From a virus, in IMG/VR virus record IMGVR_UViG_3300025030_000086, positions 9,158 through 73,157 of that record: a stretch of DNA of 64,000 nucleotides. The stretch is one strand, 5' to 3'. The translations under genes and the position numbers were made by a program. Below, piece by piece: positions 1,930 through 59,563 of the stretch. Each line of letters opens with the position of its first letter. The first letter of the stretch is position 1. Under the pieces are notes generated by a model. It did not search any database. It saw only the letters and a list, made by a program, of their open reading frames with translations, and was not told the DNA's origin.

Positions 1930-1965
1930 AAATCGTTTATTTTTTTAGGTTATATACTATATACT
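1930..1965 (+). promoter_or_regulatory. putative phage-specific promoter, copy 3, facing HNH-terminase operon
   Basis: AAATCGTTTATTTTTTTAGGTTATATACTATATACT. Confidence 0.45.
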
Positions 1966-2006
1966 ATATACTATATACTATATACTATATACTATATACT
2001 ATATAG
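1951..2006. repeat. 7-bp tandem repeat (TATATAC)x7 plus TATATAG
   Basis: Seen directly. Confidence 0.95.
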
Positions 2007-2063: not shown

Positions 2064-2633
2064 ATGATATTAATTAAAAAATTAGGCACTCGGTTAGATA
2101 AAAATGGTAAAAAACAAAGTTGGGCTATATTTAAATGTCCTAAATGTCTACAGGAAGTTGTGAGATTATTGGGGAGTGGGGATAGTCAAAAATCCTGTGG
2201 GTGTTATACAAATGTAAAGCATAAAGGAAGTTATACAAGATTATATAATACTTGGGCTATGATGAAACAAAGATGTTTAAATCCAAATGTAAAACAATTT
2301 AAAAATTATGGTGGTAGAGGTATAACTATATGCAATGAATGGTCAAATTTCACCCCTTTCAGGGATTGGTCACTAAATAATGGATATGCAGATAATCTAC
2401 AAATAAACAGAATAAATAATGATGGTAATTATGAACCAAGTAATTGTGAGTGGATTTCTCATAAAGAAAATGCAAGACATAGAAGAGGACAGAAAATAAA
2501 TATGGAAAAAGCTAATGAAATTAGGGCTTTGTGGAATACAGGAAATTACACACAGAAAGAATTAGCTGAAAAGTATAATGTAAATAGAATAACAATTTCT
2601 AAAATAATAAATAATAAAACATGGAAAAATTAA
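2064..2633 (+). CDS. HNH-type homing endonuclease (Zn-ribbon, YGGRGI HNH domain, C-terminal HTH)
   Basis: CxxC..KSCGC, YGGRGITIC.EW, INRINNDGNYEPSNC, TQKELAEKYNV HTH. Confidence 0.85.
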   Translation: MILIKKLGTRLDKNGKKQSWAIFKCPKCLQEVVRLLGSGDSQKSCGCYTNVKHKGSYTRLYNTWAMMKQRCLNPNVKQFKNYGGRGITICNEWSNFTPFRDWSLNNGYADNLQINRINNDGNYEPSNCEWISHKENARHRRGQKINMEKANEIRALWNTGNYTQKELAEKYNVNRITISKIINNKTWKN

Positions 2634-4214
2634 ATGCTTATTAAAAAGAAAAAAATACTTCCTCCTGAATTAAATGAAGATAATCTTAGACGTTACGTAA
2701 AGAACCGGATGGATTTTAGACGGGAGCAGTTTGTATTAGAACCATCTCTTGATTTTCCAGAAGGGGGTTTATTTGGAGACTTGTGTCAGCAATGGCAGAT
2801 AGACTATATATTTAAGCCAATTGATTTGAGAGATGAAAAAGGATTTCCATCTTACAGATTGCTTTATATTGGTTTACCTAAGAAATTTGGGAAAACAGCT
2901 CTTTTGGGGGGTGAGTGTCTTGTTCAACTATTACTTTCACCCAGACCAACAGAGGAGAATTATATTTTATCAGGAGACAAGTTTCAAGCCGCTTATTTAT
3001 TACAAAAAATTAAGGATTTTATAGCTCGTAATCCTAATTTTGTTGATTTATTCACAATATATAAAAATGAAATAATCGTACCAAGCACGGGTGCAATGAT
3101 TCAAGTAATGAGTTCAGAAGCCTCATCCAAGCAGGGGCGTAACCCAGACTTCTACATTTTTGATGAATTTTGGAATCAGCCAAATAGAGATTTATTTGAT
3201 ACTATGTTCTTGGGGCAAGCAGCCAAACCCTCGTCTCAAGGGATTATAATTACAAATACGGGTTACGACAAAAAGTCAATTTGTTGGGAAACACATGAAT
3301 TATGTCGAAGTGGCGATTTTAAAAACTTTTATTTCTTTGAACCAACTGGGGTGTTGCTTGAATCTTTAAAAACTCCTTGGATTTCAGAACAATGGTTTGA
3401 AATAGAACGTAAATCCATGCCCCCAAAAGTATTTAACCGATTTCGTAAAAACCTCTGGGTTGATGAGGGAGAACATCCTTTTATGCCAGATGAAGGATGG
3501 AAATGTTTTAAATCATATCTTTCAGAAAAATCCATATGTTATAAAGGCCCTCATTATGTAGGAATAGACCTTGGATTAAAAAAGGATGCAGCTTCTTTAA
3601 CAGTTCTCCATAGAGCAGGAAGAAAATTGGAAGGGGACATGTTTAGGAGATGGTTAGGTAGTTCAGAAAATCCTGTAAAGATAAGTGAAATAGAAGATGA
3701 ATTGATAATGATATTAAGAAATTTCCATGACTGTGTTTTAGTTTGTGATCCCTGGCAATTAATGGGAACTATACAAAGATTCAGGAGTGTTGGCATTGAG
3801 GTCATTGAATTTTATTTAACAGCAGAGAATATTGGAAAATTAAGTCGTAACTTATTTTACCTATTTAAAAATCAATCCTTAGATTTGCCAAAATATTCAA
3901 AACTTGAAGATGAATTGAAAGGACTACAAGTAGTTGAGAAAAGTTATGGATGGAGGATTGACCATAGTGAGGATACAAGTAGTGATATTACAATGGGTTT
4001 AGGTATGGCTGCGGTCGTTGCAATGGAACGTGGGATTGATACCTATAGCGGAAAAGATTTAGCGGATTTGGGTTTCTTGAATCAAAAATCTATTTTTAAA
4101 TCAGGTGAAAAAAGAGATTTTATGGAAAAAATTGAAATTATAGAAAATAAAGTAGATGTGGATAAAACTAATGCAGGCCCAAAAGTGTTTAGCTTTTCTA
4201 AGAGGCAATTTTAA
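2634..4214 (+). CDS. terL: terminase large subunit
   Basis: Walker A LPKKFGKT, Walker B YIFDE, coupling motif ITNTG, RNase H-like nuclease VGIDLG..D; 526 aa. Confidence 0.9.
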   Translation: MLIKKKKILPPELNEDNLRRYVKNRMDFRREQFVLEPSLDFPEGGLFGDLCQQWQIDYIFKPIDLRDEKGFPSYRLLYIGLPKKFGKTALLGGECLVQLLLSPRPTEENYILSGDKFQAAYLLQKIKDFIARNPNFVDLFTIYKNEIIVPSTGAMIQVMSSEASSKQGRNPDFYIFDEFWNQPNRDLFDTMFLGQAAKPSSQGIIITNTGYDKKSICWETHELCRSGDFKNFYFFEPTGVLLESLKTPWISEQWFEIERKSMPPKVFNRFRKNLWVDEGEHPFMPDEGWKCFKSYLSEKSICYKGPHYVGIDLGLKKDAASLTVLHRAGRKLEGDMFRRWLGSSENPVKISEIEDELIMILRNFHDCVLVCDPWQLMGTIQRFRSVGIEVIEFYLTAENIGKLSRNLFYLFKNQSLDLPKYSKLEDELKGLQVVEKSYGWRIDHSEDTSSDITMGLGMAAVVAMERGIDTYSGKDLADLGFLNQKSIFKSGEKRDFMEKIEIIENKVDVDKTNAGPKVFSFSKRQF

Positions 4215-4672
4215 TGAAGTTAATGAAAGACTTAGGTATAAGGTTAATTAAAGGGCATTGGTTTAGGTATGCTATATTTAAATGCTCTGAATGTTTACAA
4301 GAAGTTGAAAGACAAACAAGTGCAGGAAAAATAACAAAATCTTGTGGTTGTGTTAGATACTCAGAAAATAAAAAGAATTATAAACATGGGTTTTCAAAAA
4401 CAAAATTATATATGATTTGGAATAATATGAAACAAAGAGTTTTAAATCCTAAAAGAGATAATTATAAATATTACGGTGGAAGAGGAATAACAATATGTCC
4501 AGAATGGACAGATAAGTTAAATGGATTCATTACTTTTAGAGATTGGGCACTAAGTAATGAGTATGCAGACAACTTAGTTATTGATAGAATAAATCCAGAT
4601 GGTAATTATGAGCCATCTAATTGTAGATTTTTAACTATTGAGGAAAGCAATAGAAATAAGAGAAAGAATTAA
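4214..4672 (+). CDS. HNH-type homing endonuclease (no C-terminal HTH)
   Basis: KSCGC, YYGGRGITICPEW, IDRINPDGNYEPSNC. Confidence 0.85.
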   Translation: MKLMKDLGIRLIKGHWFRYAIFKCSECLQEVERQTSAGKITKSCGCVRYSENKKNYKHGFSKTKLYMIWNNMKQRVLNPKRDNYKYYGGRGITICPEWTDKLNGFITFRDWALSNEYADNLVIDRINPDGNYEPSNCRFLTIEESNRNKRKN

Positions 4673-6181: not shown

Positions 6182-6799
6182 ATGAATATAGGATTTGATT
6201 TAGACGGGGTTTTGGCTAACTTTCATTATGGATTTTCTAAAATAGCAAATGAATTATTTGGTTCTCCTATAGTTAAGGATATTAATGAAGTTAAAGCTTA
6301 TAGGTGGGAGGACTGGGGTTATCCATTGGATAAGAAACAACATAATAAAGTATGGAGAGAAATAGATTCAAATACTAATGATTTTTGGTTAGATTTACAA
6401 CCATTGGTTGAAAATACTATTTTTGAAAGAATGAAAAAGATGGAAAAAGAAAACTGTAACTTTTTCTTTATTACTTCTCGTAAAAATACAGCAGGGAAAA
6501 GTGCATTATCACAGACAAAAGATTGGATAGAGAGTTGCACAGCTTTAAAGAATTTTTCCGTAATTCCTTCTCACAGGAAGGGTGGTATATTAGATAGAGC
6601 TGAAATAGATTATTTTATTGATGATTTACCAGAAAATGTAATTGAGGCTGCTATAGAAGCCCCGAAATGTAAATCTTTCCTTTTGGTTAGACCATACAAT
6701 TCATATGCTCTTGAGTTTATTAAAAAATCTCATAAATTTAAAAATATTGGGATAGTATATAGTGTAGGTGAGTTTTTAGACATCGTGGAACAACATTAA
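6182..6799 (+). CDS. HAD-family 5'(3')-deoxyribonucleotidase-like protein
   Basis: IGFDLDGVLA, FITSR, FIDD, RPYN motifs. Confidence 0.85.
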   Translation: MNIGFDLDGVLANFHYGFSKIANELFGSPIVKDINEVKAYRWEDWGYPLDKKQHNKVWREIDSNTNDFWLDLQPLVENTIFERMKKMEKENCNFFFITSRKNTAGKSALSQTKDWIESCTALKNFSVIPSHRKGGILDRAEIDYFIDDLPENVIEAAIEAPKCKSFLLVRPYNSYALEFIKKSHKFKNIGIVYSVGEFLDIVEQH

Positions 6800-6917
6800 A
6801 AGTGGCTATTCAGAATAGGAGAAAAGCTATTGGTATTGATTTAGGTTATTCAGATATTCAGGATAGGAAATTACAAAATATACAAATAAAATTGCTTAAA
6901 ATTGGAGGAGGATAGAA

Positions 6918-7622
6918 ATGACACATGATGGACATCATTACAGTCAGGATTGTAATTGTACTACTTGTTTTATGAATAGAGTAAAAACAACAAGAAAGTA
7001 TGTTAATAAAGCTATGGCAGGAGAAAAAACAGATATAATTAAAATGGAAACTATAGAAGGTACTAAACTTGAGGATGATGGGGAAGACGGGTGCTACATA
7101 GATTATGAAGATTTACATAAAAAGAGGTATAATAAATCAAATTCACCAGAAGAACCTGTATTAATTAAACATCCAACATATAATAATGGATTAGCATATG
7201 ATAAACACTTAGAATTAAATTCACATATAAATGAGATAGACAATAATTCAATTCCAATATATGTGAACAATGACCAAATTAGAAAGTTTGATAGTGGGGC
7301 AACACGAGACACTTCAGAAGGTAAAATAGATTTTGAAGGTTTTATATCACCAATAGTTTTAGAAGAATTTGGAAAATATATGCTGAAGCATCAGAAACAA
7401 TCAAATGGGGAATTGAGACCCTCCGACAATTGGCAGAAGGGGATGCCGAGAGATGTTTATATGAAATCTGCTTGGAGACACTTTCATGACTGGTGGATGG
7501 AACATAGAGGATATGATTCAAGAGAGGGGATGAAGGATGCTTTAAACGGTCTACTATTCAATTTGATGGGCTACATGCATGAATTGCTTTTAGAAGAAAG
7601 GAAAAATAATGAATCTAAATAG
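6918..7622 (+). CDS. dATP/dGTP diphosphohydrolase-domain (DUF5664-like) protein
   Basis: C-terminal RKFDSGATRD..GK..NWQKGMP..SAWRH. Confidence 0.7.
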   Translation: MTHDGHHYSQDCNCTTCFMNRVKTTRKYVNKAMAGEKTDIIKMETIEGTKLEDDGEDGCYIDYEDLHKKRYNKSNSPEEPVLIKHPTYNNGLAYDKHLELNSHINEIDNNSIPIYVNNDQIRKFDSGATRDTSEGKIDFEGFISPIVLEEFGKYMLKHQKQSNGELRPSDNWQKGMPRDVYMKSAWRHFHDWWMEHRGYDSREGMKDALNGLLFNLMGYMHELLLEERKNNESK

Positions 7623-8362: not shown

Positions 8363-9778
8363 ATGAATTATTTCCAAGATAAATTTTCAACTCTATATTT
8401 AGGTGATTGTTTGGAAGAATTAAAAAATATTGAGGATAATAGCATTGATTCTATTGTTACTGATCCTCCTTATGGTTATTCCTTCATGGGAAAAGATTGG
8501 GATAAAGCCGTGCCCTCAATTAGTATTTGGAAAGAATGTTTAAGAGTTTTAAAACCCGGTTCTTTTGCTTTTATAATGTCTTCTCCAAGACAGGATATTT
8601 TATCAAGAATGATTATAAATTTGCAAGATGCTGGGTTTAGAACAGATTTTACAAGTATCTATTGGGCCTATGCTTCTGGATTTCCTAAAGCTACAAATAT
8701 AAGTAAAATTATAGATAAAAGATTGGGATGCGAAAGAGAAGTTATAGAAAATAGGAAAGTAACAGAGAATATGTCAAAAATGAGTAAGAATAGTCCAAAT
8801 AAAGATGGATATCCAAAACGACCAAGACCGAAAGACAATTATTGGACAGGAGAAATTTTAGATACTAAAGCTATAAGTGAGCAAGCTAAAGAATTTGATG
8901 GTTCTTATTCAGGATTCCAACCAAAACCAGCAGTAGAAATTATTATTGTATGCATGAAACCTTTATCTGAAAAAACTTTTGTTGAGCAAGCATTGAATAA
9001 TGGTAAGGGGATTACTTGGTTAGATAATTGCAGGATTCCTTATGAAAATAATTGTAGATTAAACAAAGGTGATAGTTATAAAGGAAATAGGAATGGTAGT
9101 AATAAAAAGTCTTTTTATCAAAAAGGTAATGGTAATATAGATTATAAATATGAATTACCGAATGGTAGATTTCCAGCTAATCTTTTAGTTTCTGATGATA
9201 TATTAAATGACGGTATTGATAGAAAAGGTGTTTCCGGTGGAGGCCCTAAAGAGTATGGCGGTGGTGGCGGCTTTGATAATAATTTGAATAGGCAACCTGT
9301 AAAAAATTATTATAATGATTCTGGTTCTTTTAGTAGATATTTTGATATTGATAAATGGTTTGAAACTAAAATAAAAGAATTACCAATTAGTATACAAAAA
9401 GTTTTTCCTTTTTTAATAGAATCTAAAGCATCTAAATCTGAAAAGGTAAAAGGTTTAGAATTTGAAAAATACAAAATTGGTGGCGGTATAAATGGTACAG
9501 AAGATATGTCATTGAGGACAGGAAGTGGGAATGAAAGAAATAATTTAAATAAGAACAATCACCCAACAGTTAAACCAATAAAATTAATGAGTTACTTAAT
9601 AACTTTAGGAAGTAGAGAAAATGATATTATTCTTGACCCATTTATGGGCAGTGGTTCTACAGGTATTGCTTCTAAATTATTGAATAGGAAATTTATTGGT
9701 ATTGAAAAAGAAGAAGAATACATTGAAATTGCTTCAAAAAGAATAGAAATTGTAAATAATCAACAAAAATTAATTTGA
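8363..9778 (+). CDS. DNA N4-cytosine/N6-adenine methyltransferase (beta class)
   Basis: N-terminal VTDPPY; C-terminal HPTVKP and LDPFMGSGSTG; likely ATG at 8363. Confidence 0.9.
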   Translation: MNYFQDKFSTLYLGDCLEELKNIEDNSIDSIVTDPPYGYSFMGKDWDKAVPSISIWKECLRVLKPGSFAFIMSSPRQDILSRMIINLQDAGFRTDFTSIYWAYASGFPKATNISKIIDKRLGCEREVIENRKVTENMSKMSKNSPNKDGYPKRPRPKDNYWTGEILDTKAISEQAKEFDGSYSGFQPKPAVEIIIVCMKPLSEKTFVEQALNNGKGITWLDNCRIPYENNCRLNKGDSYKGNRNGSNKKSFYQKGNGNIDYKYELPNGRFPANLLVSDDILNDGIDRKGVSGGGPKEYGGGGGFDNNLNRQPVKNYYNDSGSFSRYFDIDKWFETKIKELPISIQKVFPFLIESKASKSEKVKGLEFEKYKIGGGINGTEDMSLRTGSGNERNNLNKNNHPTVKPIKLMSYLITLGSRENDIILDPFMGSGSTGIASKLLNRKFIGIEKEEEYIEIASKRIEIVNNQQKLI

Positions 9779-10714
9779 CATACACGTGAGTATTTAATAT
9801 GAAAGTAGGATTAATAGATGTGGATTCCAAAATTCCAAATATTGCTTTGATGAAGCTATCCACATTTCATAAAGAAAGAGGAGATGCAGTAGAATTTTGG
9901 AAAGGTTCATTTTTTAATGATGAATATGATAAAATGTATGCTTCTAAAGTTTTTGATTTTTCTTCATTACCAAATGGGATGGACAAAAAGACAATTATTG
10001 GTGGAACGGGTTATGATTTAACTATTAAATTACCTGATGATATTGAATATTTATGTCCTGATTATTCATTGTATCCTAATTGTGATTATTCTATAGGATT
10101 TATTACAAGAGGTTGCAGCAGGAATTGTTCATTTTGCAAAGTTCCTAAAAAAGAGGGTAAAATTAGATTTAATCAATCATGGGAAAATTTTAAAAATCCA
10201 AATGGAAAATATTGGGTATTCTTAGATAATAATATCCTTGCCTATGAAAATCATTTAGATATTTTAAAAGAGATTAATGAAAGAAAAATGGTTATAGATT
10301 TTAACCAAGCAACAGATATAAGATTAGTTACAGAAGAAAATGCAAAAATATTGGCAACAATTAAATGGCATTCTTTTTACAGATTTTCTTTCGATTGGAT
10401 ATTTTTAGATAAACAGATTATTGAAAAGGTTAAGTTACTAAACAATTTTGGGTTATCCTCTTATAAAATGTTTTGTTTCATTTTGATTGGTTACAACACA
10501 ACTGTTGAGGAAGATTTATATAGAGTAGAATTATGTAGAGAATTAAAAATAAATCCTTTTGTTATGCCATATAATAAATTTGATAAATACCAAAAAGACT
10601 TTTCCAGATGGGTTAATCATAAAGCTATTTTTAAATTTGTTGCTTGGGAGGATTATAAGAAAAAGAATTGGGAAATGGTTGATATGAATGGACAACAAAA
10701 ATTAATTTGACATA
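9761..10714 (+). repeat. 22-bp direct repeat CAACAAAAATTAATTTGACATA (9761-9782 and 10693-10714)
   Basis: Identical 3' ends of the MTase and radical SAM genes (QQKLI-stop), each including TTGACA. Confidence 0.9.
9799..10710 (+). CDS. radical SAM protein (phage family often next to DNA methyltransferases)
   Basis: TRGCSRNCSFC (CxxxCxxC), PNIALMKLS N-terminus, FLDNN. Confidence 0.85.
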   Translation: MKVGLIDVDSKIPNIALMKLSTFHKERGDAVEFWKGSFFNDEYDKMYASKVFDFSSLPNGMDKKTIIGGTGYDLTIKLPDDIEYLCPDYSLYPNCDYSIGFITRGCSRNCSFCKVPKKEGKIRFNQSWENFKNPNGKYWVFLDNNILAYENHLDILKEINERKMVIDFNQATDIRLVTEENAKILATIKWHSFYRFSFDWIFLDKQIIEKVKLLNNFGLSSYKMFCFILIGYNTTVEEDLYRVELCRELKINPFVMPYNKFDKYQKDFSRWVNHKAIFKFVAWEDYKKKNWEMVDMNGQQKLI

Positions 10715-10734
10715 TTCATAGATTATGATAATAT
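10707..10734 (+). promoter_or_regulatory. sigma70-type promoter for the tRNA-like RNA
   Basis: TTGACA-16-TAATAT with extended -10 TG. Confidence 0.6.
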
Positions 10735-10753
10735 TAAATTATAAGGAAAAAAT

Positions 10754-10824
10754 GCGGTCAAAGTTTCAAGAGAGAAACACTTTTACCCAAAGAGGGGAAG
10801 GGGCAGTACCTTCTGACCGCTTCA
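10754..10824 (+). ncRNA. atypical tRNA-like RNA with glycine identity elements
   Basis: GCGGTCA/TGACCGC acceptor, U discriminator, GTTTC/GAAAC arm, short CTTTT-ACCCA-AAGAG arm, GAAGG-GGCAGTA-CCTTC T arm, ends TCA. Confidence 0.7.
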
Positions 10825-11121
10825 AATAATATGATAACAATAACAGTTTTTTATTCAATAGCAGATGGAAAAATTGTAACAGAAAAGGATTTAGATGTTA
10901 TTGATGCAGACATGAATTCTTTAATGCGGGAATGTGTCAATAAAGGATTTAAGGTAAATAATTATCAAGATAGAATTTTTCATTAAGGGGGACTAAAAAT
11001 GTCAAGAATAAATAATGCATATGTAAAGGAAGTATTAACAATAATTTTTGTTTTCTTTGTTTTCATCGTTGTTCCTATTTTTGTAATATTGACAGTAACT
11101 TAAAATATAGGAGAAATAAAG

Positions 11122-11331
11122 ATGTCAAAGGATAGTAATGTAACTTATACAAGTTTTCCAATAGCTTCAGTATTAGCAATAGTTTTTGTTGTACTAAAAT
11201 TAACAAATAATATCTCTTGGTCATGGTGGTGGGTGTTATCCCCACTATGGATACCTTTAGGTCTTATAGCTGTACTATTTGTTATTATATTTATTTTTTT
11301 GTTTGTAAAAACTTTGTTGGGGAGAACATGA
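11122..11331 (+). CDS. small membrane protein (WxWxWVLSPLW family)
   Basis: Two hydrophobic segments; paralogs at 44903 and 49224. Confidence 0.7.
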   Translation: MSKDSNVTYTSFPIASVLAIVFVVLKLTNNISWSWWWVLSPLWIPLGLIAVLFVIIFIFLFVKTLLGRT

Positions 11332-16356: not shown

Positions 16357-17277
16357 ATGCAAATTAAGACAATTGAAAAAAATTTAAGAGGTAAGATGAA
16401 TGAATGGTTATTGACTATAACTGATGAGGAACTTCGTGGAAAAGTGAAGAATAATTTATTAGTTAGTGGTGGTAGTATAGTTTCTTTGCTATTGAGAGAA
16501 GATGTGAATGATTATGATGTCTATATTAAAGATATGGATGTATTAATAGAATTGGTAAAATATTATACCAATAATTATCAAAATATAACAATTTTAGATG
16601 GTAGAAAAAAAGCAGATTATGTCTCCTTTTTAAAGCTTGACCAAATAGGCATATATAAAATTACTGTAGAAAATTTGAAACCTGATCAAGTTAAACTATA
16701 TTTTGAAAACAAAACAGGAGGACATAGGACTCTTGAGGAAGTTGGGAATCTAAAATATGTTCCGTTATTCTTTAGTCCGAATGCAATATCATTATCAAAT
16801 AATGTGCAAATTGTTACACGTTTTCATGGAAATAATGAGGATATACATAAAACTTTTGACTTTATACATGCAACTAATTATTTTACATTTAAAGAAGGTC
16901 TTGTTACAAATAAAGAAGCCTTGGAATCTATTATTTGCAAACAACTAAAATATCAAGGTAGCTTATATCCATTAACTTCTATTATACGAATGAAGAAATT
17001 TATAAAAAGAGGTTGGAATATCAATGCAGGTGAAATACTAAAGATTATGTTCCAGATATCGGAACTTAACTTGCATGACCTAAATGTTTTAGAGGAGCAA
17101 CTGATTGGCATAGACGTGGCTTATTTTGCAGAACTTATTCAAATATTAAGAACTGTGGATGCTTCTAAAATTACAAGCTCTTATATAAATGAGATTATTG
17201 ATAGAGTATTTAATACCGCTGATGAAGATATTGAGACAAATACTAAATTAATAAATGATGTAGGGGATGCTTTATGA
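16357..17277 (+). CDS. nucleotidyltransferase-like protein (Pol beta superfamily)
   Basis: VSGGSI..DVNDYDVY, NAISL, FDFIH, RMKKFIKRGW. Confidence 0.65.
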   Translation: MQIKTIEKNLRGKMNEWLLTITDEELRGKVKNNLLVSGGSIVSLLLREDVNDYDVYIKDMDVLIELVKYYTNNYQNITILDGRKKADYVSFLKLDQIGIYKITVENLKPDQVKLYFENKTGGHRTLEEVGNLKYVPLFFSPNAISLSNNVQIVTRFHGNNEDIHKTFDFIHATNYFTFKEGLVTNKEALESIICKQLKYQGSLYPLTSIIRMKKFIKRGWNINAGEILKIMFQISELNLHDLNVLEEQLIGIDVAYFAELIQILRTVDASKITSSYINEIIDRVFNTADEDIETNTKLINDVGDAL

Positions 17278-29579: not shown

Positions 29580-31268
29580 ATGAAAACAATCCATATTAAA
29601 GATAATGTATTAATAATAAAGATACCGTATGATATTAATCTTGTATCATTAATCAAGACTTTCTTTTCCGGTAGGTCATGGGATAGCAATTTAAAAGTCT
29701 GGAAGTGCCCTGTAAATGAAAAGAATTTAATAGCTACCTACTCCATGATAGAAAATCATGACTTTACTGTATTTCCTGAAATGATGATTGAACTCGAAAA
29801 ATATAAAGGACAATTTGAAATACAGAAGGTTGAAAATGAAAAGAAGATAGCAGCCTCAAAAGCTATAGATGCAAATATTGAGATACCTAATTTGAAGGGA
29901 GAACTCTTCCCGTTTCAAAAAGCAGGAGTGCAATTCATAGAAAATACCAATGGTAAAACCTTAATAGCTGATGAAATGGGGTTAGGGAAGACCTTGCAAT
30001 CAATAGCTTATTGCCAATTACATGCAGAAAAAAGACCTATTTTAGTTATTTGTCCAGCAACATTAAAGTTGAATTGGCAAAGAGAATTTAGAAAATGGAC
30101 AAATATAAAAAGCTATGTTATAAATTCGCAAGATCTCAAATATCAGCTACCTATCTATGAAGCATACATTATTAATTATGATATAGTGGGGAAAATGGAA
30201 ACATTGCTGAATAAGATGAAATTTCAAGTAATGATATTGGATGAAGCACATTATTTGAAAAACCCAAAAGCATTACGGTCAAAAGCAATAAATGGATTAA
30301 ATAAGAATATACCCCATATTTTGGCATTAACTGGTACACCAATACTTAATAGACCTGTTGAAATATTTAATATTTTAAAGATGTTAAGTCCTCAAAATTT
30401 TGGCAATTATTTTGATTTTGTGAAAAGATATTGTGGAGCTACCTATGGAAAATGGGGTCTGGATGTATCAGGAGCTACCAATATTCAAGAATTAAGTGAT
30501 AAATTACGAGCAACAGTAATGATCAGAAGGGAAAAAAAGGATGTATTGGCAGAATTACCAGACAAGACAAGGGTAGTAGTCCCTCAAATATGTGATTTAA
30601 AAGCATACAAAAAAGTAGAGGATGATTTAATAAATTACTTAATTGAATCAAAGAATAAGTCAAAACTTGCAGCGGAAAAAATTAGTCAAGTAGAACAATT
30701 GGCAAAAGTTGAATATGCAAAACAGGAAGCGGTTAAAGCAAAACTCCCCCTATTTATTGAATGGAGTAAAGATTTTATTGAGGAAAATGGTAAATTAGTA
30801 ATTTTTGCTCATCATAAAGAATTTGTTGAAAAGTTAATGTTTGAACTGAAGGACTATAATCCGGTTAAAATAGTGGGTGGTATGGAAATTGAGGATAAAC
30901 AATCCTCAATAGATGCTTTCCAAAATAATAAAGAATGTAAAGTAATTATTTGTAGTCTAAAAGCCGCTGGTGTTGGGATAACTTTAGTTGCAAGTAGTTA
31001 TGTAGCATTTTTAGAGTTAGGATGGACACCCGGTGAACATGATCAGGCTGAAGATAGACTACACCGGATAGGGCAGAAAGATAATGTTACTTGTTATTAT
31101 TTTTTGGCAGAAAATACTATTGAGGAAACAATTTACGATCTACTTCAGAAAAAAAGAGATATTTTTCAAAAACTAATGCAAGATCAACATACAATTATAG
31201 GAACTCTTGATAATAATATTCTGAATGATTTAACAAATAAAATAGTAAATAAAAATGAAGTTAATTAG
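29580..31268 (+). CDS. SNF2/SWI2-family (HARP/SMARCAL1-like) helicase
   Basis: LIADEMGLGKT, ILDEAH, LTGTPILN, QAEDRLHRIGQ. Confidence 0.92.
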   Translation: MKTIHIKDNVLIIKIPYDINLVSLIKTFFSGRSWDSNLKVWKCPVNEKNLIATYSMIENHDFTVFPEMMIELEKYKGQFEIQKVENEKKIAASKAIDANIEIPNLKGELFPFQKAGVQFIENTNGKTLIADEMGLGKTLQSIAYCQLHAEKRPILVICPATLKLNWQREFRKWTNIKSYVINSQDLKYQLPIYEAYIINYDIVGKMETLLNKMKFQVMILDEAHYLKNPKALRSKAINGLNKNIPHILALTGTPILNRPVEIFNILKMLSPQNFGNYFDFVKRYCGATYGKWGLDVSGATNIQELSDKLRATVMIRREKKDVLAELPDKTRVVVPQICDLKAYKKVEDDLINYLIESKNKSKLAAEKISQVEQLAKVEYAKQEAVKAKLPLFIEWSKDFIEENGKLVIFAHHKEFVEKLMFELKDYNPVKIVGGMEIEDKQSSIDAFQNNKECKVIICSLKAAGVGITLVASSYVAFLELGWTPGEHDQAEDRLHRIGQKDNVTCYYFLAENTIEETIYDLLQKKRDIFQKLMQDQHTIIGTLDNNILNDLTNKIVNKNEVN

Positions 31269-31824
31269 AAAATTGGGGACAAGAATAAGTAAAAGTGGTC
31301 GGTTAGTAAGTTATGGTATATATCTTTGTCCATTTCCAGAATGTTTAGCAGAAGTTGAAAGACCTTTGGGTAATGGGGAAAGAAAAAAGTCTTGTGGGTG
31401 TAGAAGAAAAAAGGGGAATAGCTATACAAGATTATATAAAATTTGGACAGGTGTTAAAAATAGATGTTTTAATTCCAACAATCAAGCATATTTAGACTAT
31501 GGTGGAAGAGGAATAACAATATGTCCAGAATGGACAAATGATTATACTACTTTCAGAGATTGGGCATTAAATAATGGTTATCAAGAAAACTTAGTTATTG
31601 ATAGGATTAATCCTGATGGTAATTATGAACCCTCTAATTGTAGATGGTTAACAATATTAGAAAGTTTGAGAAATAAGACAAATACAATAACTATGGAAAT
31701 AGCTAATGAAATTAGAGATTTGTATAAAACAAAAAATTTTACTCAACAAGAAATAGCTGATAAATTTAATGTAAGTCAAGAAACAGTGTCTTTAATTATA
31801 AATAATAAGCAATGGATAAAATAA
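31255..31824 (+). CDS. HNH-type homing endonuclease (Zn-ribbon, YGGRGI, HTH)
   Basis: Same motifs as 2064. Confidence 0.85.
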   Translation: MKLIRKLGTRISKSGRLVSYGIYLCPFPECLAEVERPLGNGERKKSCGCRRKKGNSYTRLYKIWTGVKNRCFNSNNQAYLDYGGRGITICPEWTNDYTTFRDWALNNGYQENLVIDRINPDGNYEPSNCRWLTILESLRNKTNTITMEIANEIRDLYKTKNFTQQEIADKFNVSQETVSLIINNKQWIK

Positions 31825-32948: not shown

Positions 32949-33383
32949 ATGAACAAAAGAAATTACAAACATGGGGAATCCTATGTAAGGTTACATAATA
33001 TATGGGGATTAATGAAACAAAGAATTTTAAATCCTAATAGTAAAAATTATAAATATTATGGTGGTAGAGGAATAACAATATGTCCAGAATGGACAAATGA
33101 TTATATTGTTTTCAGAGATTGGGCACTAAATAATGGTTATAAAGAAGGATTACAAATACACAGAGAAAATGATGGGAATTACGAACCAGATAGTTGTAGA
33201 TGGGTAACAAGAACTGAAAATTTAAGACACACAAGAAAAACTATAACTATGGAAATTGCTGATGAAATTAGAGATTTGTACAAAACAGGGAATTTTTCCA
33301 TGCAAGAGTTAGGAAATAAATATAGCATAAGTAAACAAATGGTATCTTACATTTTGAATAATAAAAATTGGAAAAATGTTTGA
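32949..33383 (+). CDS. HNH-type homing endonuclease lacking the N-terminal Zn-ribbon
   Basis: KHGES..YYGGRGITICPEW..GNYEPDSCRW..HTH. Confidence 0.8.
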   Translation: MNKRNYKHGESYVRLHNIWGLMKQRILNPNSKNYKYYGGRGITICPEWTNDYIVFRDWALNNGYKEGLQIHRENDGNYEPDSCRWVTRTENLRHTRKTITMEIADEIRDLYKTGNFSMQELGNKYSISKQMVSYILNNKNWKNV

Positions 33384-35122: not shown

Positions 35123-35737
35123 ATGCGATTAATTAGAAAATTAGGAACAAGGAAAAATAAAACAGGTAATAATTATACGAGTTGGGGTGTATTTTGGTGT
35201 AACTTTTGTAAACAAGAGGTAGAAAAAGAATTATCTGTTGGTAGAAGGTATAAATCTTGTGGTTGTGTAAGATATTCAGAAAATAAGGGTGATTATAAAC
35301 ATGGTGGAAAAGGGACAAAATTATATAATGTATGGCAATCTATAAAACAAAGAATTTTAAATCCAAATAATGAAGCATATAAAGATTATGGTGGTAGAGG
35401 AATAACAATATGTCCAGAATGGACAAATAAAGAAAATGGATTTATAAATTTCAGAGATTGGTCACTAAGTAATGGTTACAAAGAAGGATTACAAATAAAT
35501 AGAATAAATAATGATGGTAATTATGAACCATCTAATTGTAATTTTATCCCAGCTAAAGAAAATAATAAAAATCAAAGATTGAGAAAAGATAGTAAAATAA
35601 AAAATATTGAAATAGCTAATGAAATTAGAGCTTTATATGCTATAGGAAATTATATACAAAAAGAGTTAGCAAGTAGATTTAATATAAGTCAAGCAACAAT
35701 TTCTTTAATTATTAATAACAAACAATGGGTGAAATAA
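35123..35737 (+). CDS. HNH-type homing endonuclease (Zn-ribbon, YGGRGI, HTH)
   Basis: Same motifs as 2064. Confidence 0.85.
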   Translation: MRLIRKLGTRKNKTGNNYTSWGVFWCNFCKQEVEKELSVGRRYKSCGCVRYSENKGDYKHGGKGTKLYNVWQSIKQRILNPNNEAYKDYGGRGITICPEWTNKENGFINFRDWSLSNGYKEGLQINRINNDGNYEPSNCNFIPAKENNKNQRLRKDSKIKNIEIANEIRALYAIGNYIQKELASRFNISQATISLIINNKQWVK

Positions 35738-56933: not shown

Positions 56934-57506
56934 TTAGCCCCAAAGTTTTTTATTGATTATTTTTGTAATAGTCCCTTGTCTTAAATTATATTTTTTGCCT
57001 AATTGTTCTTGTGTACAATTACCTGTTTTATATAAATCTCTAATTTCATTAGCAATTTTTTCATCTATTTTGCATCTTCTTGTATTTCTTCCATTTTCTT
57101 TATGTGAAATCCAATTACAATTACTTGGTTCATAATTACCATCATTATTTATTCTGTTTATTTGTAGTCCTTCTTTGTATCCATTATTTACTGCCCAATC
57201 CCTGAAAGGGATGAATTCTAACCATTCATTGCATACTGCAATACCCCTACCACCATAATTTTTGTAACCTTTATCGTTTAAATTTAGACATCTTTTCTTC
57301 ATACTTGACCAAACTTTATGAAGTTTTGTATGACTTTCTCCATGTTTTATTAAAAATTTTTGTTTCATACAACCACAAGATTTATTTCTTTTCCCATCTC
57401 CAAGTCTCCTTATAACTTCTTGCTTGCAATGTTCACAGTAAAACAATCCAAAACTGACCATTCTACTATTTATAATTCTTGGCGGTAGATTTTTTATTAA
57501 TTGCAT
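56934..57506 (-). CDS. HNH-type homing endonuclease (Zn-ribbon, YGGRGI, HTH)
   Basis: Same motifs as 2064. Confidence 0.85.
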   Translation of the reverse strand: MQLIKNLPPRIINSRMVSFGLFYCEHCKQEVIRRLGDGKRNKSCGCMKQKFLIKHGESHTKLHKVWSSMKKRCLNLNDKGYKNYGGRGIAVCNEWLEFIPFRDWAVNNGYKEGLQINRINNDGNYEPSNCNWISHKENGRNTRRCKIDEKIANEIRDLYKTGNCTQEQLGKKYNLRQGTITKIINKKLWG

Positions 57507-57512
57507 AGCTAT

Positions 57513-58835
57513 TTAATTGTCCATAAGTTCTGAGAACGTGCAAAAATTGCCCATGTCAAAATTAGTATAAATTCTAATCTGTGCCCATTTCTTTGAACTT
57601 CTTGATCTCATCACAAATAAACGTGCTTGATTTAATAGCAATTCTTCATTGGTCTGATTTATACTAATCGCCAAATCACATACATTAAGTATATCTATAC
57701 TCCCTCTAATATCTTTACTTTGTATAATTTTATTTCCTATAGCTGCTCTTTGACTATGTGTAGATGTCACAACTGCAATATTCTTTTCCATAGCTATACG
57801 CCGTAATTCATGGCTCAATTCTTCAAGTGCTTTCCAATCATCCCCACGTTTATTTTCATTATATTTTAGTCCCTGTAATCCATCAACTAATATTATATCT
57901 GGGGATTTCCCATGAGCTAATTCCAAATCACTGATTAAATTTTCTAATTTCCTAATAGACAATGTTTTATCTGGAAATTCTTTCAAAAACAAAGAACCTC
58001 CAAAACTCCTCATTGCTTTAAGAGACTTCTTGACTTTATTCACATTACCTAAATGGTCTGGTTTAAATCTAATTTTTTCCTTTCCTGACCAAATCTCCAA
58101 TTCTTCCATTGGTTTATTTGTTACACCTGAAAATCTTTGGAAAAATCTACTTTTAACTTGATGTTCAGACATCTCTGTTGTAATGTAAAGAATATCTTTG
58201 GAATATAGCAAAGCCTTGCTACCTAAGAAAATGAAAAAGAAAGATTTTCCTACATTCAAAGGGGCAACTATAACAGATAATTCTTTTCTCTTCAATCCAC
58301 CAATTATTAAATCAAGTGCTTTTATCCCTGTTGGGCAACAAATCTCACCATTATATTCATCATTATAAAATCCTTTCAAATCTTCTTCTAATAAATTTAC
58401 TGTATTAGAATATCCTATTTTATCTAATAATAATTTTTTAACCCTTTCCTCAATGCCATCAATATCATTATTATCAAGTAATTCTACGCTTTCTATAAGT
58501 GTTTTTTCCCATAGCCTTTTTCTAAGGAACAAATCTAATTTATCAAAAATGTATTCTTTAATGTAAACTTCAGAAAATAATTTATTTAAATAGGCTATTA
58601 TTATAGTTTGTTCATTTTCTGGAAAATTTGTTAAAATAATTTCGTCAGCTTTTTCTCCTATAGTAACTCCATATTTATCATAAAAGTCAAAAGATATTTT
58701 ACATATTTGCTTTTGAATTGAGGATTTAAAAATATCAGGATTAATTTTGTTTCTGCAAATAATTAGGAATTTTAAATCCGTAAGAATTAAAAACAAAATC
58801 CCATTTTGAATATCATCACTCAATGTTTCATTCAT
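57513..58835 (-). CDS. dnaB: replicative helicase
   Basis: PTGI..LD..IGG, APLNVGKS, TEMS, ILVD, L..IA.E. Confidence 0.88.
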   Translation of the reverse strand: MNETLSDDIQNGILFLILTDLKFLIICRNKINPDIFKSSIQKQICKISFDFYDKYGVTIGEKADEIILTNFPENEQTIIIAYLNKLFSEVYIKEYIFDKLDLFLRKRLWEKTLIESVELLDNNDIDGIEERVKKLLLDKIGYSNTVNLLEEDLKGFYNDEYNGEICCPTGIKALDLIIGGLKRKELSVIVAPLNVGKSFFFIFLGSKALLYSKDILYITTEMSEHQVKSRFFQRFSGVTNKPMEELEIWSGKEKIRFKPDHLGNVNKVKKSLKAMRSFGGSLFLKEFPDKTLSIRKLENLISDLELAHGKSPDIILVDGLQGLKYNENKRGDDWKALEELSHELRRIAMEKNIAVVTSTHSQRAAIGNKIIQSKDIRGSIDILNVCDLAISINQTNEELLLNQARLFVMRSRSSKKWAQIRIYTNFDMGNFCTFSELMDN

Positions 58836-59563
58836 ATTTTATTTCTCATTATATTTTTATAGAATTCCGTCCAGTAATTTCTTTTGTTTTTTCCATTAGT
58901 TCTTGTATGACAGGAAGTGCCTAAAGTAATTAAATTTTCTGGATTATTATTCTTTTTATTGTAATCAATATGATGAACATGAAGTCTATCATGTATTTCA
59001 GTGCAATTCGGAAATTGGCACATATAATTATCTCTTTCAAGTATAGATTTCTTTATTTGTTTAAACTCCTTTGGATATATTTCAAAAGATTTACCGCCTT
59101 GCCAAGAAGGACTATTTTCACCAGCAAATCTACCTTTTCTTGCTTTTGATATATTTTGTCTATGCTCCTTTGTAAATACTTTTCCTAATGTTTTCCCTTT
59201 ATTACTTTCGCCTATTTTACGTTTTGTTTCTTCTGGACGATGCTTTCCATACATGGGGTGCTTTTCCTTGGTTCTACCAAAAGCAGGGCATTCCTCTCCC
59301 CTTTTTCCAAACATTGGATTATTCACCCCATTAAAATCCGCATGATTTTCTTTCATTTTTTGTTTATGATTTTCACTTTTCTTTTTTCCTTTAAGTGATA
59401 CAGATTTTAATTCATTGGATATGCAACCACAAGATTTATCTCTTTTTCCAGAACTAAGGTCTTTTTCTACTTCTTGGAAACAAAAAGGACATTTAAATAC
59501 AGCATAACTTACATTATTACCACTTTTATTTTTTCTTACACCCAATCTTTTAATTAATTCCAT
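58832..59563 (-). CDS. HNH homing endonuclease with Zn-ribbon and NUMOD3 repeats
   Basis: KSCGC, NPMFGK/HPMYGKH repeats, W.GG, ERDNY.CQ, HVHHIDYNK.NN..NLI. Confidence 0.85.
   Translation of the reverse strand: MELIKRLGVRKNKSGNNVSYAVFKCPFCFQEVEKDLSSGKRDKSCGCISNELKSVSLKGKKKSENHKQKMKENHADFNGVNNPMFGKRGEECPAFGRTKEKHPMYGKHRPEETKRKIGESNKGKTLGKVFTKEHRQNISKARKGRFAGENSPSWQGGKSFEIYPKEFKQIKKSILERDNYMCQFPNCTEIHDRLHVHHIDYNKKNNNPENLITLGTSCHTRTNGKNKRNYWTEFYKNIMRNKI

What the first reader, a model, noticed from the sequence alone, without database searches (positions are those of the whole stretch)
10754..10824. Non-canonical tRNA-Gly-like RNA with its own promoter
Seen: a perfect 7-bp acceptor stem (G1-C72, C2-G71, G3-C70) with U73, but a 5-bp D stem whose loop lacks GG, a shrunken anticodon arm (loop ACCCA, or TTACCCA on a 3-bp stem), a 2-nt variable region, T loop GGCAGUA instead of UUCRANY, and a 3' TCA rather than CCA. 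Established: those acceptor elements are bacterial GlyRS determinants; non-proteinogenic tRNA-Gly species exist; GGCRGUA is the T-loop variant of alphaproteobacterial tmRNA. Inference: a glycyl donor for non-ribosomal chemistry (it directly follows the MTase/radical SAM pair) or a decoy for anticodon nucleases. Standard tRNA scanners may miss it.
Basis: partly seen in the sequence, partly recalled or inferred. Interest (0 to 1): 0.7.

Follow-up and report, generated by a model that had tools for sequence, protein, structure and literature searches.

The report
Remodelled phage tRNA-Gly-like RNA gene
This is a real, conserved small RNA gene of a groundwater phage, a glycine-type transfer RNA with an unusual "elbow" and a shortened anticodon arm, which belongs to a large family of odd tRNAs that standard gene finders overlook.

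Summary
Window 10754-10821 folds into a cloverleaf (-26 kcal/mol, z -3.6, 0 of 200 shuffles as good). ARAGORN and Rfam give nothing there.

Its exact T arm (GAAGG-GGCAGUA-CCUUC) recurs in 53 tRNA-shaped loci of IMG/VR (31 distinct sequences) and in bacterial tRNA arrays. These carry many anticodons, matching identity elements, a D loop with A-G instead of GG, and strong covariation. ARAGORN missed this tRNA in all 32 loci given; Rfam's tRNA model found 11 of 22.

A covariance model built without the window scores the element at 51.9 bits.

The window's version is Gly-type (G1-C72, C2-G71, G3-C70, U73, an ACC/CCC loop) but 4 nt shorter in the anticodon/variable region.

Six metagenome contigs carry the same short form, all with encoded CCA. 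It varies less than third codon positions next door (4/50 vs 15/51, p=0.01). Its upstream neighbours differ, and it is absent from close relatives.

Best reading: a maintained tRNA-like RNA that is probably not a normal decoder. Function is untested. The link to the MTase/radical SAM pair is not supported. No RNA data were found.

The parts
10707..10734 (+). sigma-70-type promoter TTGACA-16 nt-TAATAT (TG-extended -10). Its -35 box overlaps the stop codon of the radical SAM gene.
   Evidence: 10 of 12 matches. Conserved in L003 and in L191/L193/L194/L195. The same 16-mer follows the MTase gene at 9765-9780. Transcription is inferred, not shown.
10740..10828 (+). 89-nt presence/absence block: leader plus tRNA-like gene plus 7-nt trailer, relative to the nearest relative.
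   Evidence: Alignment with L003. Contigs of runs X1 and X7 join 10739 to 10831 with 'AC' between. L197 also lacks it.
10754..10821 (+). tRNA-like RNA body, 68 nt from G1 to discriminator U.
   Evidence: Fold. Family model R1 gives 51.9 bits, E 3.9e-13, model positions 1-71. ARAGORN -mt calls Gly(acc). Orthologues in L190-L195.
10754..10760 (+). 5' strand of the acceptor stem (GCGGUCA).
   Evidence: Pairs 7 of 7 with 10814-10820. A7>G in L191/L193/L194/L195 keeps the pair as G-U.
10763..10778 (+). D arm GUUUC-AAGAGA-GAAAC. The loop keeps the family's invariant A-G and has no GG.
   Evidence: The model alignment places A-G under the family's invariant A17 G18.
10780..10796 (+). Remodelled anticodon/variable region CUUUUACCCAAAGAGGG: 17 nt where the family has 21. 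The pairing is ambiguous.
   Evidence: Identical in all 7 contigs except G42>A at 10795 in L190/L192.
10797..10813 (+). T arm GAAGG-GGCAGUA-CCUUC, with a tmRNA-type T loop.
   Evidence: The exact 17-mer occurs in 53 tRNA-shaped viral loci and in bacterial arrays. The RF01849 consensus T loop is GGCgGUA.
10814..10824 (+). 3' strand of the acceptor stem (UGACCGC), discriminator U (10821), then UCA.
   Evidence: 10822 is C (giving CCA) in 6 of 6 orthologues and in most laid contigs.
10831..10986 (+). 51-aa ORF of unknown function, the constant downstream neighbour. It has no Shine-Dalgarno sequence of its own.
   Evidence: Present after the element in 7 of 7 contigs. Also present without it in L003/L196 and L197. 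No Pfam or PHROG match.

Best explanation
The element is a genuine, selectively maintained RNA gene. It is a glycine-type member of a large family of phage and tRNA-array tRNAs that use an alternative elbow.

The family's alternative elbow:
- The D loop has A-G in place of G18-G19.
- The T loop is GGCAGUA, so 54/58 are G/G, 55 is G and C56 is kept. Alphaproteobacterial tmRNA has the same T loop.

In this phage lineage the anticodon/variable region has lost 4 nt. No canonical arrangement of a 5-bp stem, a 7-nt loop and a 4-nt variable loop can form.

Most likely mechanism (all steps inferred):
1. It is transcribed from the early-type promoter 19 nt upstream, together with the 51-aa gene behind it.
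2. It is cut out like a tRNA: RNase P at G1, and CCA encoded in 6 of 7 copies.
3. It folds into an L shape through the alternative elbow.
4. It is a plausible substrate of bacterial GlyRS, because G1-C72, C2-G71, G3-C70, U73 and a CC-containing loop are all kept.

Because of the shortened arm it probably does not decode like its full-length Gly(ACC) relatives. It would then act as a tRNA mimic: a decoy or competitor for a tRNA-binding host factor, or a glycine carrier.

Shown: family membership, conservation and accessory status. Inferred: processing, charging and the non-decoding role.
For: Family:
- The 17-mer T arm is found in 57 viral stretches. Of these, 56 could be assessed and 53 are tRNA-shaped, giving 31 distinct sequences.
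- RNAalifold on these 31 gives a cloverleaf of 21 pairs, 16 with compensatory changes.
- Anticodon loops fit Lys, Pro, Gly, Gln, Ile, Thr, Val, Met and His. The acceptor features that I recall as identity elements match, such as C1-G72/A73 for Pro and U1 with G73 for Gln (read).

Membership:
- Model R1, built without the window, hits 10754-10821 at 51.9 bits. The phage's ordinary tRNA-Gln scores 26.8 bits and all else scores 13.4 bits or less.
- The D-loop A-G is kept.

Gly type:
- Only the Gly(ACC) members (L011, L039, L184-L188) share GCGG...CCGC-U and a UNACC/UACCC loop.
- ARAGORN -mt calls Gly(acc).
- GGU is the phage's commonest Gly codon, 280 of 681.

Maintenance:
- 6 orthologues share the short region and all encode CCA.
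- Variable sites are 4 of 50 in the element (search key excluded) against 15 of 51 third codon positions in the adjacent ORF, Fisher p=0.0097.
- L191, L193, L194 and L195 have identical elements while their ORFs differ by up to 10%.
- The three body changes do not break any stem of the core fold: A-U>G-U, the unpaired position 26, and G42>A.
- Homology between different left flanks begins 1 nt before the tRNA 5' end.
Against: - No RNA data exist. No listed sequencing run holding the stretch is on record as RNA, so transcription and processing are unshown.
- The R1 score is partly circular, because the family was found with the window's own T arm. About half of the 51.9 bits must come from those 17 positions (my estimate).
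- The conservation test rests on 7 closely related contigs that share ancestry. Against all ORF positions it is not significant (4/50 vs 28/156, p=0.12). Recent recombinational spread could mimic selection.
- The element is dispensable: it is absent from L003/L196, L197 and some contigs of the same samples.
- The window's own copy has lost the encoded CCA.
- Every pairing model for the anticodon region is weak, adding at most about -5 kcal/mol to the core fold. A single 4-nt deletion could have disabled a normal tRNA.
- No partner protein was identified.
Confidence: 0.5

Rival explanations
1. It is still a working elongator tRNA-Gly that reads GGU (anticodon ACC) or GGG (CCC). It would have a compact, mitochondrion-like core in which a longer D stem or a re-paired arm compensates for the missing 4 nt.
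For: - The rest of the family looks decoding-competent. Members fill gaps in tRNA sets: Lys(UUU) in L005, and Ile(GAU) in 5 of 5 cyanobacterial arrays where ARAGORN finds no Ile(GAU).
- The Gly identity set and CCA are kept.
- ARAGORN -mt finds a parse with a 5-layer anticodon stem, a 7-nt loop UUACCCA, U33 and anticodon ACC.
- GGU is the preferred Gly codon.
- Purifying selection is suggested.
Against: - That parse costs 7-13 kcal/mol against the models that keep the perfect 5-bp D stem, and it contains an A.A (or G.A) mismatch.
- The other parses give a 3-4 bp stem, or no variable loop, and C or A at position 33 or C at 37.
- None of the 31 distinct family sequences in IMG/VR is shorter than 71 nt.
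- Bacterial ribosomes are not known to accept such geometry (general knowledge, recalled).
Confidence: 0.2
2. It is a recently disabled tRNA-Gly pseudogene. One 4-nt deletion would have inactivated it, and it persists because little time has passed and it rides in a gene cassette between a promoter and a retained gene.
For: - One indel event suffices (the S2 alignment).
- The anticodon region is poorly structured.
- The element is dispensable in close relatives.
- The window's copy has mutated CCA to UCA.
- All carriers are close relatives: the adjacent ORF is 87-99% identical between them.
Against: - The element varies less than neighbouring third codon positions (p=0.0097) and is identical in contigs whose ORFs differ by 10%.
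- No stem-breaking change occurs in 7 copies.
- CCA is kept in 6 of 7.
- It occurs behind at least 3 different upstream contexts with the junction at the tRNA 5' end. This suggests that the unit is moved and kept as such.
Confidence: 0.25
3. It is a small protein-coding gene (25 aa from ATG 10752, or 34 aa from 10725) with a Shine-Dalgarno sequence. The RNA fold would be incidental.
For: - AAGGA lies 5 nt before ATG 10752.
- The stop TAA lies 1 nt before the next ATG.
- The frame is open in the orthologues.
Against: - AAGGA is AAAGA in L191 and L194. L190 and L192 have TTG instead of ATG behind a different flank.
- The four variable sites give 1 synonymous and 3 non-synonymous changes (read).
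- There is no Pfam match.
- Homology to a covarying tRNA family explains the sequence fully.
Confidence: 0.03

Closest known systems
Elongator tRNA-Gly / generic tRNA (Rfam RF00005)
   Same: - Cloverleaf with a 7-bp acceptor stem, 5-bp T stem, 7-nt T loop with C56, and a discriminator.
- CCA in the orthologues.
- The bacterial Gly acceptor set G1-C72, C2-G71, G3-C70, U73 (the set itself is recalled knowledge).
   Different: - No G18 G19, no U54 U55, and no U33 in most parses.
- The anticodon/variable region is 4 nt short.
- No Rfam match even at E<=10, and no ARAGORN call in standard mode.
The GGCAGUA-T-loop tRNAs of phage tRNA clusters and bacterial long tRNA arrays (defined here; model R1)
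   Same: - Identical 17-nt T arm.
- D-loop A-G.
- Overall cloverleaf.
- 51.9 bits to R1.
   Different: - All 31 distinct IMG/VR members are 71-73 nt to the discriminator, with a 5-bp/7-nt anticodon arm and a variable loop of 4-6 nt. This one is 68 nt.
- Its D stem can form 5 bp.
- It stands alone, not in a cluster.
Non-proteinogenic tRNA-Gly of staphylococci (glycine donors for FemXAB)
   Same: Glycine identity combined with an elbow that lacks G18, G19 and U55. PMC4574755 (passages read) says that the three non-proteinogenic species lack G18, G19, U55 and C56 and carry U18U19 or C18U19.
   Different: - Those tRNAs carry UCC anticodons in anticodon arms that I recall as ordinary, and they work with host Fem enzymes.
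- Here C56 is kept and the anticodon arm is remodelled.
- No Fem-like gene is in the record.
- The odd elbow is shared with non-Gly tRNAs of the family.
- Supplemental Fig. 2 of that paper, with the sequences, could not be seen.
tRNA-like domain of alphaproteobacterial two-piece tmRNA (Rfam RF01849)
   Same: - T arm with loop GGCRGUA on a G-rich stem (consensus GGGGGCgGUACCC).
- A phage of the same tRNA family (L011) encodes such a tmRNA with GGCAGUA.
   Different: - tmRNA is permuted, has a tag reading frame and pseudoknots, and has alanine identity (G3-U70, recalled).
- The element has none of these. It has normal 5'-to-3' order and G3-C70.
Phage T4 stable RNAs C and D, and bacterial pseudo-tRNAs such as Bacillus cereus tRNA-Other (recalled, not checked here)
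   Same: Small tRNA-derived RNAs, encoded with or like tRNAs, that are not ordinary decoders.
   Different: No sequence relation was tested. This is a resemblance of kind only.

Membership tests
Canonical tRNA (RF00005) | Score at or above the curated threshold of the Rfam tRNA model (29 bits), or a call by ARAGORN in bacterial mode. | tested here: not met
   No match at gathering score or at E<=10. ARAGORN finds 0 genes there.
Canonical tRNA (RF00005) | 7-bp acceptor stem, discriminator, 3' CCA (encoded or added). | tested here: met
   7 of 7 Watson-Crick pairs. CCA is encoded in 6 of 6 orthologues; the window has UCA.
Canonical tRNA (RF00005) | Elbow nucleotides G18 G19 in the D loop and U54 U55 C56 in the T loop. 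| tested here: not met
   The D loop is AAGAGA and the T loop is GGCAGUA. Only C56 is kept.
Canonical tRNA (RF00005) | Anticodon arm of 5 bp with a 7-nt loop (U33, purine 37), followed by a variable region of 4 nt or more. | tested here: not met
   Only 17 nt are available for the arm plus variable region. Six parses were evaluated and none meets all conditions.
GGCAGUA-T-loop tRNA family (model R1, defined here) | T arm GAAGG-GGCAGUA-CCUUC (or the RGCRKUA variants) together with a D loop carrying A-G in place of GG. | tested here: met
   Exact 17-mer. A-G aligned to the family's invariant positions.
GGCAGUA-T-loop tRNA family (model R1, defined here) | Significant full-length match to a covariance model built without the candidate. 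| tested here: met
   51.9 bits, E 3.9e-13, model positions 1-71. Caveat: the T arm was the search key.
GGCAGUA-T-loop tRNA family (model R1, defined here) | Standard length (71-73 nt to the discriminator) with a regular anticodon arm. | tested here: not met
   68 nt. The model deletes 4 positions in the anticodon arm.
tRNA-Gly identity (bacterial GlyRS substrates) | G1-C72, C2-G71, G3-C70, U73 and C35 C36 (set recalled from the literature). | tested here: inconclusive
   The acceptor elements are all present. CC is present in the loop, but its numbering depends on the parse. Charging is not testable here.
Non-proteinogenic tRNA-Gly (staphylococcal type) | Weak EF-Tu binding, and use by Fem-type aminoacyl transferases. 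| not testable with these tools
   No FemAB, Acetyltransf_6 or L/F-transferase match in the 73-kb record, which is about 51% complete. A host enzyme cannot be excluded.
tmRNA (RF01849, RF04321) | Tag reading frame, pseudoknots, permuted or standard tmRNA architecture. | tested here: not met
   No tmRNA match in the window. ARAGORN -m at a lowered threshold finds none.
Small protein-coding gene | Conserved start codon and ribosome-binding site, with an excess of synonymous change. | tested here: not met
   The Shine-Dalgarno sequence is lost in L191/L194. ATG is replaced by TTG in L190/L192. Changes are 1 synonymous to 3 non-synonymous.

The most novel reading that the evidence does not exclude
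Two linked claims.

(a) Many phages, cyanobacterial long tRNA arrays and Verrucomicrobial arrays use a second, self-consistent tRNA elbow: A18-G19 in the D loop, and G54/G55/C56/G58 in the T loop, the tmRNA type. This elbow cannot receive the universal m5U54 and pseudouridine-55 marks. It is invisible to ARAGORN and half-visible to Rfam's tRNA model, so viral and array tRNA sets are systematically under-counted.

(b) This phage lineage has turned a Gly member of that family into a conserved, CCA-ended tRNA mimic with a truncated anticodon arm. It would be charged or bound like tRNA-Gly but kept off the ribosome, as a decoy against tRNA-directed host defences or as a glycine carrier.
Probability: 0.3. 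Interest if true: 0.8.

Novelty: new variant of a known kind. Interest (0 to 1): 0.6.

Why it matters
Three reasons.

1. Annotation. A recurrent class of tRNA genes is skipped by ARAGORN (missed in all 32 loci given) and found only half the time by Rfam's tRNA model (11 of 22). Counts of viral tRNAs and of "missing" isoacceptors in phage clusters and bacterial tRNA arrays are therefore biased. An example is tRNA-Ile(GAU) in cyanobacterial arrays.

2. Structure. The family shows that the D-loop/T-loop elbow, usually treated as nearly invariant, has a second solution. It is shared with alphaproteobacterial tmRNA and used for many amino-acid identities. This bears on RNase P, the CCA-adding enzyme, EF-Tu, the ribosome, and on nucleases and modification enzymes that read the elbow.

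3. Function. The short-armed Gly derivative is a natural candidate for a non-decoding tRNA mimic in a phage. It can be tested directly by expression, charging and nuclease assays.

If it proves to be a fresh pseudogene, only the first two points remain.

Tried and rejected
**Expression.** One search for sequencing runs listed 20 runs from 11 studies, labelled groundwater, soil or sediment metagenomes. No RNA holder was listed, so nothing can be said on transcription. Laying contigs of 4 runs gave variants and joints only.

**Cultured phages.** Three blastn searches of the 'phages' collection were run. The 1.7-kb region gave no match. A family member gave no match at E<=1e-3. The element gave only 18-27-nt chance-level matches at E 0.7-9.

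**Literature.** Six full-text searches and passages of three papers (PMC8421152, PMC4758250, PMC4574755) turned up no description of a GGCAGUA-type tRNA elbow in phages or arrays. This is not proof that none exists. Puerto-Galan and Vioque 2012 on the Anabaena cluster is not in the library, and supplements are closed.

**Glycyl-donor idea.** FemAB, Acetyltransf_6 and Leu/Phe-transferase profiles found nothing in the record.

**tmRNA idea.** No tmRNA features were found.

**Global similarity to Gly(ACC) relatives.** Outside the T arm the element is only 44-48% identical to them, no closer than to other members (22-53%). The Gly assignment therefore rests on the acceptor set and the loop motif, not on overall likeness.

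**The MFE hairpin CCC/GGG (33-35 with 41-43).** G42>A in L190/L192 breaks it, so I do not adopt it.

**Other steps.**
- The protein at 16357-17277 looked by eye like a nucleotidyltransferase, but it has no Pfam match and only PHROGs of unknown function.
- The script's flag "tRNA-shaped" for 70 of 120 genome loci includes some false flags by eye, such as L080, L090, L112 and L117. I use it only as "about half".
Full report
**What is in the window**

The window is part of a 73,157-base IMG/VR virus record, estimated at 51% complete. It is AT-rich and carries phage genes: large terminase, a sliding-clamp-like protein, ThyX, RNA ligase and several HNH endonucleases.

- a 7-bp all-Watson-Crick acceptor stem, GCGGUCA/UGACCGC;
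- two unpaired A;
- a 5-bp D stem, GUUUC/GAAAC, with loop AAGAGA;
- 17 nt, CUUUUACCCAAAGAGGG;
- a T arm, GAAGG-GGCAGUA-CCUUC;
- discriminator U;
- then UCA.

The minimum-free-energy fold is this cloverleaf. It has -26.0 kcal/mol against -15.9 +/- 2.8 for shuffles, z -3.63, with 0 of 200 shuffles as good. The stretch is a G+C island, 0.43 against 0.2-0.3.

A promoter-like site, TTGACA-16-TAATAT with TG, lies at 10707-10734.

ARAGORN and Rfam at gathering score find only an ordinary tRNA-Gln at 1854-1928. A permissive Rfam scan of 10600-11000 at E<=10 gives no tRNA-type match.

**It belongs to a large family**

Searching IMG/VR for the exact 17-nt T arm gave 57 stretches.
- 56 could be assessed; one was cut by a contig end.
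- 53 lie in a complete tRNA-shaped context, giving 31 distinct sequences.
- 3 (L007, L009, L020) look like chance hits. Chance hits of that order are expected for a 17-mer.

The 31 sequences are 71-73 nt to the discriminator. Their anticodon loops fit Lys(UUU, CUU), Pro(UGG), Gly(ACC), Gln(UUG), Ile(GAU), Thr, Val, Met/Ile(CAU) and His. They carry the acceptor features I recall as identity elements for those amino acids, for example C1-G72 with A73 for Pro, and U1 with G73 for Gln.

RNAalifold gives a cloverleaf of 21 pairs, 16 with compensatory changes. The T stem is invariant by construction.

All have a D loop with an invariant A-G where ordinary tRNAs have G18 G19.

Many sit inside phage tRNA clusters, in gaps of about 75 nt between genes that ARAGORN does call. 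ARAGORN called none of these T-arm tRNAs in the 32 loci I gave it.

Rfam's tRNA model detected 2 of 4 and 9 of 18, which is 11 of 22.

A covariance model of the 31 (R1) found further members in the same loci. Their T loops were GGCGGUA, GCCGGUA, AGCAUUA, AGCGUUA and AGCAUAA. Positions 54 and 58 therefore vary together (G/G or A/U), while G55 is usual and C56 is constant.

I read this as an alternative elbow:
- G19-C56 is kept;
- G18-pseudouridine-55 is replaced by A18-G55;
- T54-A58 is replaced by G54-G58 or A54-U58.

That structural reading is inference.

**The family also occurs in cells, and the T loop is that of alpha-type tmRNA**

Roughly half were tRNA-shaped.

- One version, with loop CUGAUAA (Ile GAU), sits in the long tRNA arrays of filamentous cyanobacteria. 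In 5 of 5 such loci ARAGORN finds 21-27 tRNAs but no Ile(GAU).
- A Lys(UUU) version sits in Verrucomicrobiales arrays.

That members fill gaps in otherwise complete sets suggests that the family as a whole decodes (inference).

A phage of the family (L011) also encodes a two-piece tmRNA that matches Rfam alpha_tmRNA at 125.7 bits. Its T loop is GGCAGUA, and the family consensus printed by Rfam is GGGGGCgGUACCC.

I found no description of this tRNA class in six full-text searches and three papers. That does not exclude prior description elsewhere.

**How the window's element fits**

R1, built without the window, hits 10754-10821 at 51.9 bits (E 3.9e-13, full model). The phage's ordinary tRNA-Gln scores 26.8 bits, and nothing else in 64 kb scores above 13.4. 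There is no second copy in the whole record.

The score is partly circular because the T arm was my search key. The remainder is about what a real tRNA scores under this model.

The D-loop A-G aligns with the family's invariant positions.

The element differs in one respect: the model deletes 4 positions in the anticodon arm. Seventeen nt must serve for what takes 21 nt in the family.

I evaluated six pairings. With the 5-bp D stem kept, the anticodon region adds at most 5 kcal/mol. The options are:
- a CCC/GGG hairpin, which G42>A in two orthologues breaks;
- a 5-bp G-U-rich stem with loop ACCCAAA and no variable loop;
- a 4-bp stem with loop UACCCAA and a 2-nt variable loop;
- a 4-bp stem CUUU/AAAG with loop UACCC, which is the model's own alignment;
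- a 3-bp stem with loop UUACCCA.

ARAGORN's mitochondrial mode calls the element as a 68-nt Gly(acc) with a 5-layer anticodon stem. It does so by borrowing from the D stem, and that costs 7-13 kcal/mol relative to the other models.

None of the pairings is a canonical decoding geometry.

**Glycine type**

Within the family only the Gly(ACC) members share GCGG...CCGC plus U73. These are L011 and its identical copies, L039, and L184-L188. Their loops are UUACCAA or UAACCAA, against UUACCCA/UACCCAA here.

These relatives are solitary genes in AT-rich phage contigs, with a -10-like box just upstream (read), as in the window.

Outside the T arm the overall identity to them is only 44-48%, no higher than to other members. 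The assignment therefore rests on identity elements and the loop motif.

GGU is the phage's commonest glycine codon: 280 of 681 Gly codons in ORFs of 150 aa or more.

**Orthologues, polymorphism and selection**

A metagenome scan with a 21-nt key found 6 contigs, L190-L195.
- All have the same short anticodon region.
- All encode U73-CCA; the window alone has UCA.
- Variable sites in the 71 nt number four: A7>G (A-U to G-U), A26>G (unpaired), G42>A, and C>U in CCA.

With the 21 key positions excluded, 4 of 50 sites vary.
- Against third codon positions of the adjacent 51-codon ORF, 15 of 51 vary (Fisher p=0.0097).
- Against all ORF positions, 28 of 156 vary (p=0.12).

Four contigs have identical elements while their ORFs differ by up to 10%. 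This argues for constraint, or for recent spread. It argues against neutral decay, but it rests on few, related sequences.

The element is accessory.
- The nearest relative, L003 (radical SAM protein 93% identical), lacks exactly 89 nt, 10740-10828.
- L197 lacks it.
- Contigs of runs X1 and X7 join 10739 to 10831 directly.

Upstream neighbours differ:
- the radical SAM gene in the window only;
- other small genes after the phosphoesterase (L193) or the MTase (L194, L192);
- a promoter-less flank in L190/L192.

The homology starts 1 nt before the tRNA 5' end. The downstream 51-aa ORF is constant.

The region is a shuffled set of small cassettes. The same 16-mer, a gene end plus the TTGACA box, closes both the MTase and the radical SAM genes, and HNH endonuclease paralogues abound.

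**The small ORF**

A 25-aa frame (ATG 10752 to TAA 10829) with AAGGA upstream coincides with the element. It is not supported:
- AAGGA is AAAGA in L191 and L194;
- ATG is TTG behind another flank in L190 and L192;
- the changes are 1 synonymous to 3 non-synonymous.

**Interpretation**

Shown:
- a real, conserved, accessory RNA gene of the alternative-elbow tRNA family;
- Gly-type by its acceptor set;
- a remodelled anticodon arm.

Inferred:
- transcription from the promoter;
- RNase P and CCA maturation;
- possible glycylation;
- loss of normal decoding.

I put about 0.5 on a maintained tRNA mimic. Its role is open: a decoy or competitor for a tRNA-binding host factor, a glycine carrier, or also a processing signal for the leaderless-looking downstream mRNA. 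I put 0.2 on a still-decoding compact tRNA-Gly, 0.25 on a young pseudogene and 0.03 on a peptide gene.

The closest named analogue for "Gly identity plus odd elbow" is the non-proteinogenic tRNA-Gly of staphylococci. These lack G18, G19, U55 and C56 (PMC4574755, passages). Here, however, the odd elbow is a family trait. No Fem-type or L/F-transferase gene is in the record. The proposed tie to the MTase/radical SAM pair fails on gene context.

**Limits**
- No RNA run was listed.
- tRNAscan-SE was not available.
- Supplements of papers were closed.
- The host is unknown.

Noticed in passing
L005, L021, L028, L053, L054, L057 and other viral loci; L063, L065, L098, L102, L128 (cyanobacteria); L079, L093, L095, L138 (Verrucomicrobiales): Phage tRNA clusters and bacterial long tRNA arrays contain tRNAs with a tmRNA-type T loop (GGCAGUA and variants) and an A-G D loop. 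ARAGORN skips them and Rfam's tRNA model finds about half. In 5 of 5 cyanobacterial arrays this is the only Ile(GAU). L021 has four such genes in a row (6561-6894).
   Followed up: partly
L011:6868-7300: A phage contig carrying the Gly(ACC) odd-elbow tRNA also encodes an alphaproteobacterial-type two-piece tmRNA (RF01849, 125.7 bits) whose T loop is GGCAGUA.
   Followed up: partly
window 2064-2633, 4214-4672, 31255-31824, 32949-33383, 35123-35737 (+); 56934-57506, 58832-59563, 61191-61895 (-): At least eight paralogous HNH homing-endonuclease-like ORFs are scattered through the window (tblastn against L003:590-1168; PHROG HNH endonuclease hits for 2064-2633).
   Followed up: partly
window 9765-9780 and 10697-10712: The identical 16-mer AAAAATTAATTTGACA ends both the DNA methylase and the radical SAM genes (both proteins end in QQKLI) and supplies a -35 box. 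This is a repeated promoter cassette between small genes, in a region whose gene content is shuffled among relatives (L003, L004, L193, L194, L197).
   Followed up: partly
window 6918-7622: This ORF has a just-sub-threshold match to the N-terminal domain of dATP/dGTP diphosphohydrolase (PF18909, 25.4 bits against a cut-off of 27), next to a metallophosphoesterase. It may be dNTP-pool manipulation. PurZ was not looked for.
   Followed up: no
window 10991-11149: Contigs of runs X1, X7 and X9 skip 134-150 nt here or replace them with 17 other letters. The small membrane-protein ORFs downstream are also presence/absence polymorphic in the population.
   Followed up: no
window about 1950-1980 (- strand): A short tandem repeat (TATAG-like units) lies just upstream of the ordinary tRNA-Gln gene.
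   Followed up: no
L053:9391-9458; L185 and L188 (Gly type): Other irregular family members were seen: a 68-nt one with a reduced D arm, and Gly(ACC) tRNAs whose anticodon loop is UAACCAA (A instead of U at position 33).
   Followed up: no
window 16357-17277: A 306-aa protein with a GGS...DYD motif that looked to me like a nucleotidyltransferase. It has no Pfam match and only PHROGs of unknown function. In L004 its homologue directly follows the radical SAM gene.
   Followed up: partly
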